Shown in pieces: positions 21,028-35,304 of a DNA stretch of 64,000 nucleotides (within the stretch, counting starts at the first letter, position 1; each line of letters opens with the position of its first letter). The position numbers and the translations under genes were made by a program. Source of the stretch: the human T2T-CHM13v2.0 reference genome, Homo sapiens; NCBI RefSeq assembly GCF_009914755.1, contig NC_060930.1; one strand, written 5' to 3'. The notes under the pieces are model-generated. The model had not been told where the DNA came from and did no database searches. It was given only the letters and a program-made list of their open reading frames with translations.

Positions 21028-21198
<171 letters not shown>

Positions 21199-25105: not shown

Positions 25106-25132
25106 GAAAGAACAAGGGGAAGCATCAAGCAG
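25106..25132 (+). CDS. KCNQ5: KCNQ5 alternative 27-nt microexon (~exon 9)
   Basis: cacctgaag|GAAAGAACAAGGGGAAGCATCAAGCAG|gtttgt; phase 2/2; gives (K)KEQGEAS(S), recognised from the canonical KCNQ5 protein. Confidence 0.95.
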
Positions 25133-28706: not shown

Positions 28707-30406
28707 TCAATCTGAAGAAGAGCTTTTTAAATATAGCTCAACTGAGCAATAGTGAAAATACTGTTTCATCAGTTCTTTTTGGTACATTCAGGTACAAATT
28801 ACTGTTAGTCTCAACTGAGCCTGCTGTTTTTTCCTCTACTCCAATCATAAAATACTTCTTTAGCATCATTTAATCACTCATTTCTTTTCCTCTGAATTCC
28901 CACTAAAACAGTACTAATCTCATATATGTGGTGGTAAATGTGTTTATTGATTTCATTCTATTAAAAAATTAGTTGGAAAAGTCATTTTTAAAATGGGACA
29001 AGTTTTTTTCTGTTTTGATATAAATTGTCATTTTCAGAGAACTGAATTTACCTCTGAATCCATCTGTCCAGAATAAGCCAATATTCTCACCTTGAGGTTT
29101 TATGTGGTTCTCCCTTCCTCCTTGACCAGATTATCAAATAGTAGTCAGTCATCACATTGATACAAGAAGGCTTTTCCTTCTATCTACCTAAGTTTTATTG
29201 CTACAAAAACAGATTATATTATCTGAGGTTTTGAGATTATCTATACATCTTGCTGCCTCTAGTTACTCTGTCTTCTTAATCAACAATGGTTGGCTATATG
29301 CCTGCTTGATACTTAAGCTTCCTTAATGGCAATTTTAAAAGCTTTGCTAGAACCCTTTCAGATTTCTGAGTAGACTAAAGTTGCTTTACCAGGTACCTGT
29401 GAGACTGTTGTAAAGATGCATGTCTTAAACGTTAAGGCAAAAATGATATTTTTATATTACATTACACTCTTGTGCTGTGAGCCACCGAGTGCTTTTTCTG
29501 AACCACTCCTGTGTGGTTGGCTTTTGGGGGAAGGGGGAGTTCTGAAGCTGTGTGTGGCTCTTGGAGAGAACTCTAGAACCCTGGTGGAAGACTGTGTGCT
29601 CTTATATTTTTTCTGCATTTATTTTCTGTTATTTCAATTTTCTTTCTTCTGTGTGCAATGAATGATCTGCATGTGTTGTTAAACTAAACTCAATAAGACT
29701 AGATTTTGGTTTTTTTCCAACATAGTCAACTTGTGTCCTTATTGGCAAAATGTTCCATTGTTTCAAAAACAATCTTTCCAAAATGGTCTCTCCTTCTGTT
29801 CACATTTATTGATAGAGGAAACGGATTTAGTCTTCTAACAACACATCATAGGACTTAAAATAAGAAACGTACTTTTCTTTCGTTTCTTACAAACCAGCAA
29901 TCTAGAATCTTTTCTTCTGTTTTGTTGAACATATATTCTATCTGACAATTGGTTACCTATATCAACTATAAATGCAGATGTTTCACACAAACCAAGAACT
30001 TACGTTTTCAAATTTCAACAATTAATGTCATGAATTTATTGATTTCTGTAGTTATTCTTTGAAGTTCTAAAGTACGTTATTAATCATTTATACTATGTGT
30101 TATTGATATTTATTACAGGGGTAGCTATATTCTAAAGTATTTATTCTTACATGCTAACACAGAGACTATCATCATTTGTATGTAATGCCTAGTTCAAATC
30201 CAATTTTTCAACCTAGCCGTTAAGATCACTGGATATCTTTCAAGCAGCACAATTAAACAACATAGTACTCTCTGCTTAAATAGTCTGTGTACTTCTATAT
30301 TAAAAACAATAAAGCCAAATGGCTTTGTTTTTATAAAAGAATCCCTGAGCACTTTCCTATTCGTGAAATGCTTAGTAATGTGCTGCTCTATTTCCCTCAC
30401 TCCTAG

Positions 30407-30463
30407 TAAGTTCTGTAGTAATAAGCAGAAGCTCTTCAGAATGTACACCTCACGGAAGCAGAG
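30407..30463 (+). CDS. KCNQ5: KCNQ5 alternative 57-nt cassette exon
   Basis: ccctcactcctag|TAAG...CAGAG|gtaccc; phase 2/2; KFCSNKQKLFRMYTSRKQ, recognised from longer/muscle-type KCNQ5 isoforms. Confidence 0.93.
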
Positions 30464-30720: not shown

Positions 30721-32756
30721 GGACAACTGCTGAGCTGCTGCACGCACTGGATTGTTATGGCTCAGTTGCCATATTGTGCCTGAGGCGAGAATTTGTAGAA
30801 TGCTTATCCCATGAAGGGCTAAAACCCTAATTAAGTATAACAATAACTACAGCATTCTAAGTCCCAGAGGATTACTGTGGGGTTATGATGATGCCACACA
30901 GTTGCCTGGCAGAGAACAGCCGGTAGTAGACTGCATGCTAGGCCATTTGAATAACCTGTACATCTGGTTCCTAGAGATGAGAGAATTCTCTCTTGCAGGG
31001 TGACAGTGCAGGCTCTGCTGAGCGTGGTCCTCAGCTGTAACTGTGGGACTGTACCCTAAGAGAGATGCTCCGATCAATGACCACAGCAATTTTTTTTTTA
31101 CTTTCTGCAAAGCAAGACCTCCTTGTTGGTCTCTTGGGGATAATCCTTGGCATTCTTCCTAAAAATACTGTTACATAAATCTTCAAAAATCATATTCGTA
31201 GATGTCACCAAAAAAAAGGCAGGAAAATAATGAAGACTTCAGTGTTTCAGTGAAGAGTCTATATTTTTAATCAATTCAATGTGTGTTTTCAGTAACAGTC
31301 ACCTGATCAGCTTAATAGTCATCTAATCAAGACGCTGTGTTGATTTTCAAAGGGAAACAAAGTAGAAAAATAATAAAGTGAGCTTTTTGTAAGAGGACAC
31401 AAGAACAGATCTTTGCCTTGGAAAAGAAAATTTTGCCTGGTTAAAAAGTTCTTGATTAGAATCTTATTCTTAACTTTCATATAATTATGTCAAAAGAGAA
31501 AGTGAAAACATTACATTTTTTCTAATTTAACATGTAATATGCCGAGTTTATTTTAAAATAATTCTTGGGAATCTTTAAAATAATAGACATTAGCAAATAT
31601 CCATGTAGTTGAGAAGGACAAAAGGGAAATGTTACTTAGAATTTATTTTTGTCAACTTTAAGTGCTTTAAATGATACTAAGATTTAGAGAATATTACTCA
31701 CATTTTCCAATTTATTCATAAGGTAATGTCAAAATGGTTCATAGAGGCAATTTTTAAAAATATTTTTATAGGTATGATTTTTAAAATACTTTTATTATAA
31801 ACAAACTATGGTGGATTGAATGCTAATACTTTCATTTTGGATGTTTTTACTTTTTTAGTAATTGAATTTTTTTAATTTTTCATATTAAGTGTTTTTATGA
31901 TGGTTTATCCATTTCTTATGTATTTAGTTGACATAGAAAAGAGATATATCTTGAAAGTTGGAGAAAATAATTTGATATTAACTAAAACCAACCTTTTATA
32001 GTAATTAGCATCTGTTAGTTCCAGAAAAGGTAATAGATAAAATCAAATATAGTGAGGACCAATTGTAATGATATCTATGTCAACTTGAGCTATTCATTAA
32101 TCTGAATAAAGGTGCAGAAGTGAGCATATGCTTCCTGAACTAGATCATTGTAAATTTAAATTATGGAACAGATGTGTTGAAACTAAAAAGAGATTTGAAA
32201 CTTTTACAATTTAAAAAAAAAAAAGCTTGAGAAAAGTAGATATTTTTGGGCACCATCCCTTTGACAGATTTGTTTAAATAATTGAAGGCTTTGGGATGAC
32301 ATGGAAAACCTAGCCTGAGAATTAAAAGATGCAGGTTTATGATGTTATTGTTGCTCTTGTTTAATGTAATCTATCATTTAATCACACATGTGTCAAGCAC
32401 AGATAAACTCTTCCACTGTTGGGATTGTTGTAAAGAACTCTTGAACCCACCTGACCTCATCACCAAACTGCCCCGCCTGTTCTTTGCATGTGCCTTCAGC
32501 GAGTCATGCTGGACTTAGCTGTGTCTGCATTTCAGAGGGGAGCTGTCAGTTGCATGGTCAACTTGTTTATTGTTTCCAGAACTCCCTGACCACCAGTTCA
32601 TGATTTGATTTGTTTTCATGTAAACACACATAAAACGTGGTGCCCTTTTAGAATATCGTTTGTTAAGCAACTAGGCATGGAAAAATAAATGTTACTGTTT
32701 CTTGTTAGCTACAAAGCACATATCCACTAAACACATTTGCTGTTGGCATGCTGCAG

Positions 32757-32777
32757 TTGGGGACAGTGGACATTGCG
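32757..32777 (+). CDS. KCNQ5: Candidate additional in-frame 21-nt KCNQ5 microexon
   Basis: catgctgcag|TTGGGGACAGTGGACATTGCG|gtaagt; consensus donor, phase 2/2 like neighbouring cassettes, open frame (S/N)WGQWTLR; no transcript evidence available here. Confidence 0.5.
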
Positions 32778-33956
32778 GTAAGTGGACAAAACAAGGCCTC
32801 CACTTCGTCTCAAATAAGCCTTATCCATGAGAACGCTGCTTTCATACCCCACAAAGGCTGCGGCTTTACTCTCTCAGAGTAGCTGCTCTGAGAGACTTCC
32901 CTCAGACTCATTGCCCAGGATTTCTTCAGGCCCTGCAGAGTCCTGGGCCTCTCACATTGATGACAGTATCACCTTCTAATGAATGGCATAATTTCACTAT
33001 AAAGGAAACAAGAAAAAAAAACAGAATGGGTACACAAAGCTTCTTACAGTTCATTTGATTCCCACAAGAATCCCTTAGCTGTGTTGCTATGTTTATCTCC
33101 AAGTTAGAGATGAGAACCCTAGCCCCCGTGTGTCTAATCCCAACCTGCCCTTCCTAGCACATCATAGCATATCTCTTGATTAGGAAAGTGTGAAGATGCA
33201 CTTTGGATTTTATGATTGTTGTTAATGCTTCTTTTATCAGCCCACAACAATTTGATCTTAGCCGGCATCAGAGAACTGAATGCCTGAACAAATATAATTT
33301 ACCAGTAGCTGCCACAGCAAATCAATAACCTGTTTACTAGCAGGAAATTGTGTTAGTGAACATAACATCTCATTCTCTTCATCAGTCATCACATTCATTA
33401 TCTGTTGGGGCTGTTCTATCTTGTGTGGTTTTCATCTCACAAGAATGAATGTAAGCATAAAAGAAATCTAATGTTAAGTGTTGTGTGTTTAATATTATGT
33501 ATGTGGTGCTACCAACTGCTATGAGATTGCATGAATTTATGGATAACATAATCTTGCCTGGAATATAAAATGCATGCCAAATGTAGGTATATATGTAACT
33601 GTCATCCCTGTTTACCTGTAGAAATGTCTAGAAATTACAAAGAGATATGCTCCCAAACAAAAAATAATTTTTTAAATCTCAAAAGTTGAGGTTAAAGCTA
33701 AAATTACCCAACTGTTTTTCAAGTGAATTCCAAAACAGTTCTTAGTTATCTACAGTGTAATTGTGTACAAAATGCTGTATGACCTCAGTCTTTTCTACAA
33801 TGAATCCAAGAAGGATGTATGTACCTGTAGAATGAGATTGATCTCGAATGCAAATATAGAGATTAGATAAAGCTCAAATTTTAAATAAGGGAAAAATAAT
33901 TGCTATGCTCCTACGTGCTGAAAACATCTTGTCTATTGAAATATATGACCACATGA

Positions 33957-34304
<348 letters not shown>

Positions 34305-35304
34305 TGAGATTATGAAGTAATTAATTCTCCATAGTGCCACTTGAAGAAAGAAGAAAACAACCCCAGAGAAAGAATTGTTTGTTTGTTTTATTGGAAGTTT
34401 ATTCATTGCCTTGGGCAAATGTACAGAACATAAGTTTACTTTTGGAAACCACTTTGGCAGCTAAATTTACATTCCAAAGAAGCTGACAAAATGTTGTTAA
34501 TTCTTCACTTGTATCTACAAATTTATTTCTCAGACAAGGGCCACATTAAGATCAATGGGACTGTCATTCTGATGTATTTGTGACGTCTGACCAGCAAAGG
34601 TCCAAGACCCAGGGACAACCAGGTGCTTGCTCTGTGAATATCTTGAAACACAGTAAGGAGGATGATCATTTCTGGTCAACAATGAAGGTGCTCTTTCCCT
34701 CTCTCACACACTCCATCTACCAGCAAATCAGAGACCACTGCTTATCTTCCTTAGAGAGGTTCCTGTTGAAAGTTATTTCGAAGTCTTCCAATGATAAGTA
34801 AAATTCAAGTTCTTCTCCCAAGAGGAATTAACCTATTTTATTTATCATATTATGTAGCAGACATTCACTTGCCAACACATTTTATTGAGTGCCACATAAT
34901 TTTCATGTTTATAAAATAAAATATTTTATTTTTCATTTAAGATAAGCTTGGCTTTCCTTTTAACTAGGCCCCCTGGGATCTCTTATACTGGGCAAGGAAC
35001 CAAAATCAAATAGCATTTCCCATTAATGCATAAAAACTACAAAGGCTATCAGTCCTTCTGTTCCCTTTTCCTAAATAACGTGTATTTTCCCAGGCCCTCA
35101 AAGCTCGAGGAATAAAATTAACAACCAGGGGTCATAATCACAATGATCTGAGGATCCCTGCAGTGAAGTCCCTGGAACCGCAGTCCACGGGTCCCTCTCA
35201 GCTTACTCAAAGGTCCTCAGGGATATCTCTTCCACGCTCAAGTGAGCAACACAAGTCACCTCTTCACGCCTCACTCCACACCCCTGTGGGTGCCATGCTC
35301 TTCA

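What the first reader, a model, noticed from the sequence alone, without database searches (positions are those of the whole stretch)
32757..32783. Candidate third cassette: in-frame 21-nt KCNQ5 microexon encoding WGQWTLR
Seen: ctgcag|TTGGGGACAGTGGACATTGCG|gtaagt with a fully consensus intronic donor, length divisible by 3, phase 2/2 like the 27-nt and 57-nt cassettes, and stop-free when joined to exon 34034 (...S-WGQWTL-R-QKLSF). It lies in a repeat-free ~0.5 kb island with TGC motifs just before the AG (tttgctgttggcatgctgcag), a CACTAAAC branch-like element ~30 nt upstream, and TGCATG at 32485 and 32551. Established: UGC close to the 3' splice site marks SRRM3/4-dependent neural microexons. 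Inference: the helix A-B linker has up to three combinable cassettes, and a two-Trp peptide could alter calmodulin, PIP2 or trafficking interactions. I cannot confirm whether a minor isoform already annotates it.
Basis: partly seen in the sequence, partly recalled or inferred. Interest (0 to 1): 0.85.

Follow-up and report, generated by a model that had tools for sequence, protein, structure and literature searches.

The report
Conserved 21-base KCNQ5 microexon cassette
A 21-base mini-exon in the human KCNQ5 potassium-channel gene is very probably real, because gene models of gorilla, macaque, star-nosed mole and Tasmanian devil already splice it in, adding seven amino acids to a regulatory linker of the channel.

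Summary
It is in phase with the 27-nt and 57-nt cassettes and reads S-WGQWTL-R-QKLSF.

The motif pattern alone is weak evidence: 2 such open AG...GTAAGT candidates occur in the 12.8-kb exon 8-to-exon 10 interval. Two independent facts lift it.
- Human RefSeq already starts a 91-nt exon at this acceptor. That exon reads WGQWTLR then TAA, and has no donor and no AATAAA/ATTAAA at its end.
- Four database proteins carry the 7-residue insert at exactly this junction: gorilla X1 and Macaca fascicularis X4 (WGQWTLR), Tasmanian devil X2 (LGQWTLR), and star-nosed mole X1 (WGQWTMR, with all three cassettes).

So it is a therian-conserved alternative microexon in the helix A-B linker. It exists in automated annotation of other mammals, but not as a cassette in human RefSeq or in any paper I could search.

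SRRM3/4 control fits the motifs (three UGC between branch point and AG, perfect donor) but is untested. Two mouse microexon tables list only the 27-nt exon. No human 32777|34034 junction evidence could be examined. The function of the two-Trp peptide remains speculative.

The parts
32757..32777 (+). 21-nt alternative microexon of KCNQ5 (phase 2/2). It inserts WGQWTLR between the Ser codon completed by its first T and QKLSF of exon 10.
   Evidence: Sequence and frame. The same insert appears at the same junction in P0116, P0050, P0123 and P0124.
32755..32756 (+). Acceptor AG. It is shared with the RefSeq 91-nt exon and is the first AG downstream of the branch-like element.
   Evidence: Hub annotation (an exon of another transcript starts at 32757). 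AG positions.
32778..32783 (+). Donor GTAAGT, preceded by G at -1. It matches the CAG|GTAAGT consensus at 7 of 9 positions, with all of -1 to +6 matching. When it is not spliced, its G|GTAA creates CGG-TAA, a stop directly after WGQWTLR.
32725..32732 (+). Branch-point-like CACTAAAC, with the candidate branch A about 27 nt upstream of the exon.
   Evidence: The resemblance to the UACUAAC / yUnAy consensus is recalled and was not scored by a tool.
32738..32754 (+). Three UGC motifs (32738, 32749, 32752) between the branch-like element and the AG, within a weak pyrimidine tract (12 of 20).
   Evidence: 0.33 expected in 25 nt, Poisson P(>=3) = 0.005. The published SRRM3/4 microexon architecture is.
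32757..32847 (+). Human RefSeq 91-nt exon of another transcript, made of the microexon plus 70 nt of read-through. It is followed by cc (no donor) and has no AATAAA/ATTAAA.
   Evidence: Hub annotation.
32486..32750 (+). Cluster of four GCATG (32486, 32552, 32675, 32746) upstream of the microexon, with none in the 300 nt downstream. It is a candidate RBFOX-binding cluster.
   Evidence: Only 0.24% of 300-nt windows in the 64 kb reach 4, and 4 is the maximum in the window.
25106..25132 (+). 27-nt cassette (KKEQGEASS), upstream partner in all four cassette-bearing models.
   Evidence: The mouse orthologue is classed Neuronal in the MicroExonator table.
30407..30463 (+). 57-nt cassette (KFCSNKQKLFRMYTSRKQ), joined upstream of the 21-nt cassette in the mole model P0124.
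34034..34254 (+). Exon 10 (T + QKLSFKERV...), the downstream splice partner.
21103..21197 (+). Exon 8 (end of helix A region, ...HTCSPT), the upstream constitutive exon.

Best explanation
32757-32777 is a genuine, evolutionarily conserved alternative cassette microexon of KCNQ5. It is 21 nt long and has phase 2/2.

How it is probably spliced. The exon is far too short for ordinary exon definition. It has a near-consensus branch element about 27 nt upstream, a weak pyrimidine tract interrupted by three UGC motifs, and a perfect G|GTAAGT donor. This is the architecture published for activator-dependent (SRRM3/4-type) microexons.

What inclusion does. When both splice sites are used, seven residues (WGQWTLR) are inserted into the disordered helix A-B linker of Kv7.5. 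The insert lies directly after the 27-nt and 57-nt cassette positions and before QKLSFKERV.

What read-through does. When the acceptor is used but the donor is not, the frame stops immediately (CGG TAA). That read-through form is what human RefSeq records as the 91-nt exon.

Status of each step.
- Shown: the sequence anatomy, the frame, use of the acceptor in a human model, and cassette use in models of four other mammals.
- Inferred: use of the donor in human, restricted or low inclusion, and dependence on an activator.
- Speculative: any effect on PIP2, calmodulin or surface expression.
For: Anatomy and frame.

The human acceptor is annotated (hub table). The 91-nt exon reads WGQWTLR*. It ends without GT and without AATAAA/ATTAAA in 32757-33200. 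By contrast, the neighbouring alternative last exon 34534-34940 ends 25 nt after an AATAAA and matches the tail of human isoform X2, P0013. The 91-nt end therefore looks evidence-limited rather than a true poly(A) site.

Cassette in other species.
- A search with the exon 10 peptide found the insert in 2 of 120 listed proteins: P0116 (gorilla X1, 939 aa) and P0050 (Macaca fascicularis X4, 902 aa).
- A search with the 44 residues around the insert ranked four proteins first, at 83, 83, 76 and 64 bits. Cassette-less mammals scored about 50 bits. The two new ones were P0123 (Sarcophilus harrisii X2, LGQWTLR) and P0124 (Condylura cristata X1, WGQWTMR, with all three cassettes).
- With the insert removed, P0116 differs from the human 932-aa protein P0102 at 3 of 932 positions.
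- Six of seven residues and both splice junctions are kept between primates and a marsupial. Neutral intron sequence is not expected to stay alignable over that distance (established knowledge; inference).

Motifs. Three UGC lie between the branch point and the AG (P about 0.005). The donor matches at all of -1 to +6. Published SRRM3/4-dependent microexons have a strong 5'ss, and a UGC between branch point and AG occurs in 57 of 73 high-sensitivity and 51 of 71 low-sensitivity microexons (passages of bioRxiv 10.1101/2024.09.17.613571).

The locus is single copy.
Against: No RNA-seq junction data could be consulted, so splicing of 32777 to 34034 in human is unproven. Human RefSeq (hub table) has no 21-nt exon.

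All four supporting proteins are automated predictions whose underlying evidence I could not see. Only 4 representatives among the 120 listed of 832 hits carry the insert. Clustering at 90% identity hides how many species really have it.

Microexon tables.
- Mouse, PMC8797185 supplement: 1 Kcnq5 entry, the 27-nt exon.
- Mouse, MicroExonator PMC7821500 supplement file 1: only chr1_-_21466382_21466409, with its neighbours in the sorted list lying outside Kcnq5.
- Retina microexon paper PMC9303857: 0 KCNQ5 occurrences in the files searched; files 13-17 of 17 were not searched.
- Human brain micro-exon paper PMC4317164: 0 occurrences in the 5 files searched; file 1 was not searched.

The pyrimidine tract (12 of 20) is the weakest of all exons in the window. 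No rodent, bird, reptile, amphibian or fish protein among those fetched carries the insert. The RNA fold of 32700-32810 is no more stable than shuffles (z = 0.27).
Confidence: 0.7

Rival explanations
1. In human the site works only as annotated. The acceptor is used and transcription or processing runs through the GTAAGT. The result is a short alternative 3' end or retained-intron product that encodes a truncated subunit (exons 1-8/9 + WGQWTLR*), lacking helices B-D, or is simply unproductive. The 21-nt cassette form would then be negligible in human.
For: The hub annotation lists 32757-32847 and no 21-nt exon. The frame stops right after the 21 nt. KCNQ5 has another truncating alternative last exon nearby: 34534-34940, isoform X2, P0013.
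Against: There is no donor and no canonical poly(A) signal at the 91-nt end. No protein ending in WGQWTLR was found among 33 short relatives. The human DNA encodes the same seven residues as the gorilla and macaque inserts, and gorilla and macaque models splice the donor. A perfect G|GTAAGT 21 nt after a used acceptor is expected to recruit U1 (established knowledge).
Confidence: 0.15
2. The cassette is low-level splicing noise from a fortuitously good splice-site pair. Deep RNA-seq and automated pipelines picked it up in a few species, and it has no selected function.
For: Two comparable AG...GTAAGT open candidates occur by chance in the same interval. Only four representative models carry it. 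It is absent from two mouse microexon tables. No paper was found.
Against: The peptide is retained, with one substitution each, in a marsupial and a eulipotyphlan, together with both junctions. UGC motifs are enriched at the 3'ss, and the densest GCATG cluster of the window lies next to it. Noise sites are not expected to persist over the time since the marsupial-placental split (inference).
Confidence: 0.12
3. Pure chance motif with no splicing at all.
For: The bare pattern has a chance expectation of the order of one or two per intron.
Against: The acceptor is an annotated human exon start (hub table), and the exon is present in four species' models.
Confidence: 0.02

Closest known systems
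KCNQ5 27-nt exon 9 (window 25106-25132; mouse MmuEX0025146 / chr1_-_21466382_21466409)
   Same: Same gene, same intron region, same phase 2/2, and the same helix A-B linker. It is of microexon size and has UGC motifs just upstream of its AG (ctgcctgcac...). It is alternatively spliced: both forms appear among the database proteins. It is listed in a supplementary table of a paper on the neuronal microexon programme and classed 'Neuronal' in a mouse microexon table.
   Different: It is part of the selected RefSeq transcript and of the cryo-EM constructs, and it is present in the mouse tables. It encodes a polar acidic/serine peptide, not an aromatic one. Its donor is weaker (gtttgt). The 21-nt exon is absent from the human RefSeq cassette forms and from those tables.
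KCNQ5 57-nt cassette (30407-30463)
   Same: In-frame phase 2/2 cassette at the same junction, combinable with the others (P0026, P0029, P0124).
   Different: It is longer, has a strong pyrimidine tract (17 of 20) and a weak donor (gtaccc), and is annotated in human RefSeq transcripts. Its description as the muscle-type insert is recalled and comes from no call.
SRRM3/4-dependent neural/endocrine microexons
   Same: Length of 27 nt or less, frame-preserving, strong 5'ss, UGC between branch point and AG, weak 3'ss context, and location in a disordered regulatory region of a neuronal protein (architecture from passages of bioRxiv 10.1101/2024.09.17.613571; anatomy).
   Different: No UCUC-type element is evident directly upstream. 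The branch-to-AG distance (about 27 nt) is ordinary rather than long. Tissue specificity and SRRM3/4 dependence are untested. It is not in the mouse microexon tables examined.
Composite terminal exon / read-through of a 5' splice site (the human RefSeq 91-nt form)
   Same: It shares the acceptor, ignores the donor, and stops in frame immediately in the retained sequence.
   Different: No canonical poly(A) signal lies within or 350 nt beyond it. The true alternative last exon at 34534-34940 does have one.

Membership tests
Cassette exon of the KCNQ5 helix A-B linker | AG acceptor and GT donor flanking an exon whose length is divisible by 3 and whose phase matches exons 8/9 and 10 | tested here: met
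   ctgcag|21 nt|gtaagt, phase 2/2, no stop.
Cassette exon of the KCNQ5 helix A-B linker | Found spliced to both neighbours in transcript or protein models | tested here: met
   P0116, P0050, P0123 and P0124 carry the insert between the exon 9 or 57-nt peptide and QKLSF. These are predicted models of other mammals, not human.
Cassette exon of the KCNQ5 helix A-B linker | Human junction 32777|34034 observed in RNA | not testable with these tools
   No RNA-seq resource was available. Human RefSeq has only 32757-32847 (hub table).
SRRM3/4-dependent microexon | Length of 27 nt or less and frame-preserving | tested here: met
   21 nt, in frame.
SRRM3/4-dependent microexon | UGC motif between branch point and AG | tested here: met
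   TGC at 32738, 32749 and 32752. Criterion.
SRRM3/4-dependent microexon | Strong 5' splice site | tested here: met
   GCG|gtaagt, 7 of 9 consensus positions, -1 to +6 all matching. No MaxEnt score was computed.
SRRM3/4-dependent microexon | Upstream UCU/CUC-rich element and long branch point-to-AG spacing | tested here: inconclusive
   Only ttcttg (32698-32703) lies upstream, and two AGs fall between it and the acceptor. The branch-like element is about 27 nt from the exon.
SRRM3/4-dependent microexon | Neural/endocrine-restricted inclusion that responds to SRRM3/4 | not testable with these tools
   No expression data. The exon is absent from the mouse tables and from the supplement files searched.
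SRRM3/4-dependent microexon | Deep conservation of exon and flanks | tested here: inconclusive
   The peptide is conserved in primates, a eulipotyphlan and a marsupial. No genomic alignments were available. No rodent, sauropsid or fish model among those fetched carries it.
Alternative last exon (intronic polyadenylation) | Poly(A) signal 10-30 nt upstream of the annotated 3' end | tested here: not met
   0 AATAAA/ATTAAA in 32757-33200; only AATAAG at 32813.
Poison (NMD) cassette exon | Internal exon with its own donor that introduces a premature stop | tested here: not met
   The 91-nt form has a stop but is followed by cc, not GT. The 21-nt form has no stop.

The most novel reading that the evidence does not exclude
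A therian-conserved, cell-type-restricted third microexon places an aromatic W-x-x-W peptide in the otherwise polar helix A-B linker of Kv7.5. [quoted passage not shown] On this reading the exon acts as a three-way switch set by activators such as SRRM3/4 and by the adjacent GCAUG cluster. Skipping gives the normal channel. Full splicing gives a channel with altered PIP2/calmodulin gating or trafficking. Use of the acceptor without the donor gives a truncated subunit ending WGQWTLR*.
Probability: 0.2. Interest if true: 0.6.

Novelty: new member of a known kind. Interest (0 to 1): 0.4.

Why it matters
KCNQ5 (Kv7.5) contributes to M-type potassium currents. The papers seen here describe it in retinal pigment epithelium and as a refractive-error GWAS locus (passages of PMC13043084).

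The helix A-B linker is where the gene's known tissue-specific cassettes lie. In Kv7.2-7.4 it is also where PIP2 action and control of protein level were mapped (abstracts).

A third conserved cassette would have three consequences.
- Up to eight linker combinations become possible.
- Current expression constructs and cryo-EM constructs, which lack the 7 residues, may not represent every native channel.
- Variants in or around chr6:74308757-74308783 (T2T), now read as deep-intronic, could affect splicing.

The value is moderate. The exon already exists in automated annotation of other mammals, and its inclusion level and function are unknown.

Tried and rejected

Literature searches.
- KCNQ5 + microexon: 4 papers, none on this exon judging by the listing.
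- KCNQ5 + splice variant + exon 9: 3 papers. Passages read in two. Passages of PMC5803615 treat only an 'exon 9' cassette of NM_001160132 in muscle.
- The peptide as a word: 0 papers.
- KCNQ5 / Kv7.5 / splice variants / isoform: 12 papers. Passages of two were read and held nothing on linker cassettes.
- 'truncated KCNQ5 splice variant': 5 papers hold the phrase; only the search listing was seen, and the paper of that title was not among them.
- KCNQ5 + poison exon: 1 review.
- KCNQ5 + alternatively spliced + helix A + helix B: 0 papers.

Papers not held: PMC3213923, PMC4390143 and 10.1038/s42255-022-00734-2.

These, and VastDB itself, may well list the exon.

Searches for a truncated protein ending WGQWTLR: 0 of 33 short relatives. 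The transcript behind the human 91-nt exon therefore stays unidentified.

An exon 8 peptide query was too short for the protein search.

RNA structure around the exon: not different from shuffles.

Ideas rejected.
- A repeat-derived exon: the locus is single copy.
- A poison cassette: the 91-nt form has no donor.
- A bona fide alternative last exon: there is no poly(A) signal.

No structure or complex prediction was run, because no binding claim is made.

Full report
**1. The observation**

The window reads ...ccactaaacacatttgctgttggcatgctgcag|TTGGGGACAGTGGACATTGCG|gtaagtgg..., with the 21 capitals at 32757-32777. By the window's place in the assembly this is T2T-CHM13 chr6:74308757-74308777.

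- Translation from 32758 gives WGQWTLR followed at once by a stop.
- Exon 10 begins with T followed by QKLSFKERV....
- Exon 8 ends ...HTCSPT plus two bases.
- The 27-nt exon (25106-25132) and the 57-nt exon (30407-30463) each start with one base that completes a codon and end with two bases.

The stretch 32600-32900 matches only itself in the 3.1-Gb assembly.

**2. Is it more than chance?**

By pattern alone, hardly. The + strand of the window has 12 GTAAGT. Between exon 8 and exon 10 there are 2 open, in-phase AG...GTAAGT candidates of 3-51 nt, 3 with GTRAGT and 12 with GTRAG. The other perfect one overlaps the acceptor of the 57-nt exon. The case rests on independent evidence.

**3. Human annotation**

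The hub table lists an exon of another RefSeq transcript at 32757-32847, so the acceptor is already in use in a human model.

- That 91-nt exon is followed by cc, not GT, so it is drawn as a last exon.
- In the KCNQ5 frame it reads WGQWTLR then TAA. The stop is made by the G|GTAA of the unspliced donor.
- Its end has no AATAAA or ATTAAA anywhere in 32757-33200, only AATAAG at 32813.
- The other alternative exon in the table, 34534-34940, ends 25 nt after an AATAAA. It encodes KGHIKINGTVILMYL*, the tail of human isoform X2 (P0013, 496 aa).

The 34534-34940 exon is thus a true alternative last exon. The 91-nt one looks like a transcript that used the microexon's acceptor and was not, or not yet, spliced at its donor. 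I could not identify the transcript. No protein ending in WGQWTLR was among 33 short relatives.

**4. Other species**

The protein library holds vertebrate gene models.

- A search with the exon 10 peptide for longer proteins returned 2071 hits, of which 120 were listed. Two of the 120 carry ...KKEQGEASSS-WGQWTLR-QKLSFK...: P0116 (gorilla isoform X1, 939 aa) and P0050 (Macaca fascicularis isoform X4, 902 aa).
- With the insert removed, P0116 differs from the human 932-aa protein P0102 at 3 of 932 positions.
- A second search used only residues 398-441 of P0116, so that insert-bearing proteins would rank first. It gave 832 hits, 120 listed. Four stood above the rest at 83, 83, 76 and 64 bits. 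Next came teleost models at 55-52 bits and cassette-less mammals at about 50 bits.
- The two new ones are P0123 (Sarcophilus harrisii isoform X2, 937 aa...KKDQGETSSS-LGQWTLR-QKLSF) and P0124 (Condylura cristata isoform X1, 958 aa). P0124 carries all three cassettes in a row, ending ...RKQS-WGQWTMR-QKLSF.

In all, 4 of the 232 database proteins fetched have the insert, and no other protein has a GQWT string. The combinations seen among the fetched proteins were:
- no cassette
- 27 nt alone
- 57 nt alone
- 27 + 57
- 27 + 21
- 27 + 57 + 21

These are automated predictions, and I could not see their evidence. Clustering at 90% identity also hides how many species have such an isoform. Even so, the same 7-codon exon sits at the same junction, with one conservative change each in a mole and a marsupial. 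This is not what unconstrained intron sequence would give over that divergence (inference from general knowledge of mammalian neutral divergence).

**5. Evidence on the other side**

- Human RefSeq has no 21-nt form.
- A mouse table in the supplement of PMC8797185 lists one Kcnq5 event, the 27-nt exon, flanked directly by exon 8 and exon 10 junctions.
- The MicroExonator supplement (PMC7821500, file 1) lists chr1_-_21466382_21466409 (27 nt, 'Annotated', 'Neuronal N5'). Its neighbours in the sorted list lie outside Kcnq5, so no second Kcnq5 microexon was reported there.
- KCNQ5 does not occur in the supplement files of the retina microexon paper PMC9303857 that were searched; files 13-17 of 17 were not searched. 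It does not occur in the 5 searched files of the human brain micro-exon paper PMC4317164 either; file 1 was not searched.
- No rodent, bird, reptile, amphibian or fish protein among those fetched carries the insert, although teleost models have other inserts at the same junction.
- No paper mentioning this exon or peptide was found.
A listing in VastDB-type tables therefore cannot be excluded.

**6. How it probably works**

The splice signals of all exons in the window were compared.

- The candidate has the weakest pyrimidine tract (12 of 20, against 13-17 for the others) but the best intronic donor. GTAAGT preceded by G means every position from -1 to +6 matches the consensus.
- The acceptor AG is the first AG after the branch-like CACTAAAC. 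The candidate branch A lies about 27 nt from the exon; its likeness to the consensus is recalled, not scored.
- Three UGC lie between that element and the AG (0.33 expected, Poisson P about 0.005).

Passages of bioRxiv 10.1101/2024.09.17.613571 describe SRRM3/4-dependent microexons. They have strong 5' splice sites, a weak 3'ss context and a UGC between branch point and AG. The UGC is present in 57 of 73 high-sensitivity and 51 of 71 low-sensitivity events. The candidate fits these points. It lacks an evident UCUC element and a long branch-to-AG spacing.

A further feature is the GCATG cluster. The 300 nt upstream hold four GCATG (32486, 32552, 32675, 32746), the maximum for any 300-nt window in the 64 kb and reached by 0.24% of windows. 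There are none in the 300 nt downstream. By the positional rule for RBFOX proteins (recalled, from no call), upstream sites repress. The one at 32746 overlaps the UGC-rich 3'ss.

The most likely picture is an exon that is skipped by default, needs an activator at the 3'ss and is held down where RBFOX is high. That would explain a low or restricted inclusion. This regulatory picture is inference only. The local RNA fold is unremarkable (z = 0.27).

**7. Consequence for the protein**

In P0116 the insert is at residues 417-423.

- The crystal construct of the Kv7.5 A/B-calmodulin complex (6b8q) matches the query in two stretches; the best is residues 360-394, and the table does not give the second.
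- The cryo-EM constructs (9liz, 9j38) align across the site with a 7-residue gap.

The insert lies in the helix A-B linker, 22 residues past the last helix A residue matched by 6b8q and well before helix B. It is absent from all solved KCNQ5 structures.

[quoted passage not shown] For Kv7.2 it was reported as a determinant of surface expression and steady protein level (abstract of PMC3480381). A W-x-x-W peptide in this serine- and lysine-rich stretch could change such properties, but nothing here tests that. The read-through form would end the protein before helices B-D. Whether such a product exists is unknown.

**8. Comparison and novelty**

The exon works like the neighbouring 27-nt neuronal microexon and like SRRM3/4-type microexons in general.

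- Membership in the class of KCNQ5 linker cassettes is met on every feature testable here, except direct human junction evidence.
- Membership in the SRRM3/4 programme is open.
- It is not a poison cassette, because the 91-nt form has no donor.
- It is not a convincing alternative last exon, because there is no poly(A) signal.

It is a new member of a known kind. It is present in automated models of other mammals and half-present in human RefSeq, but not described in any text I could search.

**9. Verdict**

| Item | Result |
|---|---|
| Observation | confirmed |
| Interpretation | partly supported: the cassette yes; regulation and function untested |
| Confidence that it is a real conserved cassette | 0.7 |
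| Interest | 0.4 |

Noticed in passing
window 32486-32750: This is the densest GCATG cluster of the whole 64-kb window: four copies in 300 nt, a count reached by 0.24% of windows. It lies directly upstream of the microexon, with none in the 300 nt downstream. It is a candidate RBFOX site cluster. It could act on the 21-nt exon or, from a distance, on the 57-nt exon 2 kb upstream.
   Followed up: partly
window 34534-34940: This RefSeq alternative exon is a true alternative last exon. AATAAA at 34915 lies 25 nt before its end, and its frame gives the C-terminal tail of human isoform X2 (P0013, 496 aa). That isoform is a KCNQ5 form truncated after exon 10, before helix B.
   Followed up: partly
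window 30401-30411: The acceptor of the 57-nt exon is ctcctag|TAAGT. The G of the AG plus the first exon bases form a perfect GTAAGT, so a U1-type site overlaps this 3' splice site.
   Followed up: no
window 32690-32708: tgttactgtttcttgttag is a strong pyrimidine tract ending in AG, 49 nt upstream of the real acceptor. It looks like a decoy or competing 3' splice site. An exon starting at 32709 is not annotated.
   Followed up: no
proteins P0125, P0126, P0209, P0210, P0214 (teleost KCNQ5 models): Fish models carry other inserts at exactly the same exon 9/exon 10 junction. Some resemble the 57-nt cassette (for example KIHSNKQKLLRRCT...) and others are unrelated (YRFCGSSPFS). The junction is thus a long-standing hot spot for cassettes.
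   Followed up: no
proteins P0205, P0206, P0215: Several models end shortly after the 27-nt exon. Either they read through its donor (tail RFVISLLLHVCL, the same residues that the human intron after 25132 would give) or they use another last exon (Anolis X6). Truncation after helix A is modelled repeatedly in this gene.
   Followed up: no
protein P0190: An alligator model named DDX43 isoform B carries helicase domains fused to KCNQ domains. It is probably a read-through or mis-merged model.
   Followed up: no
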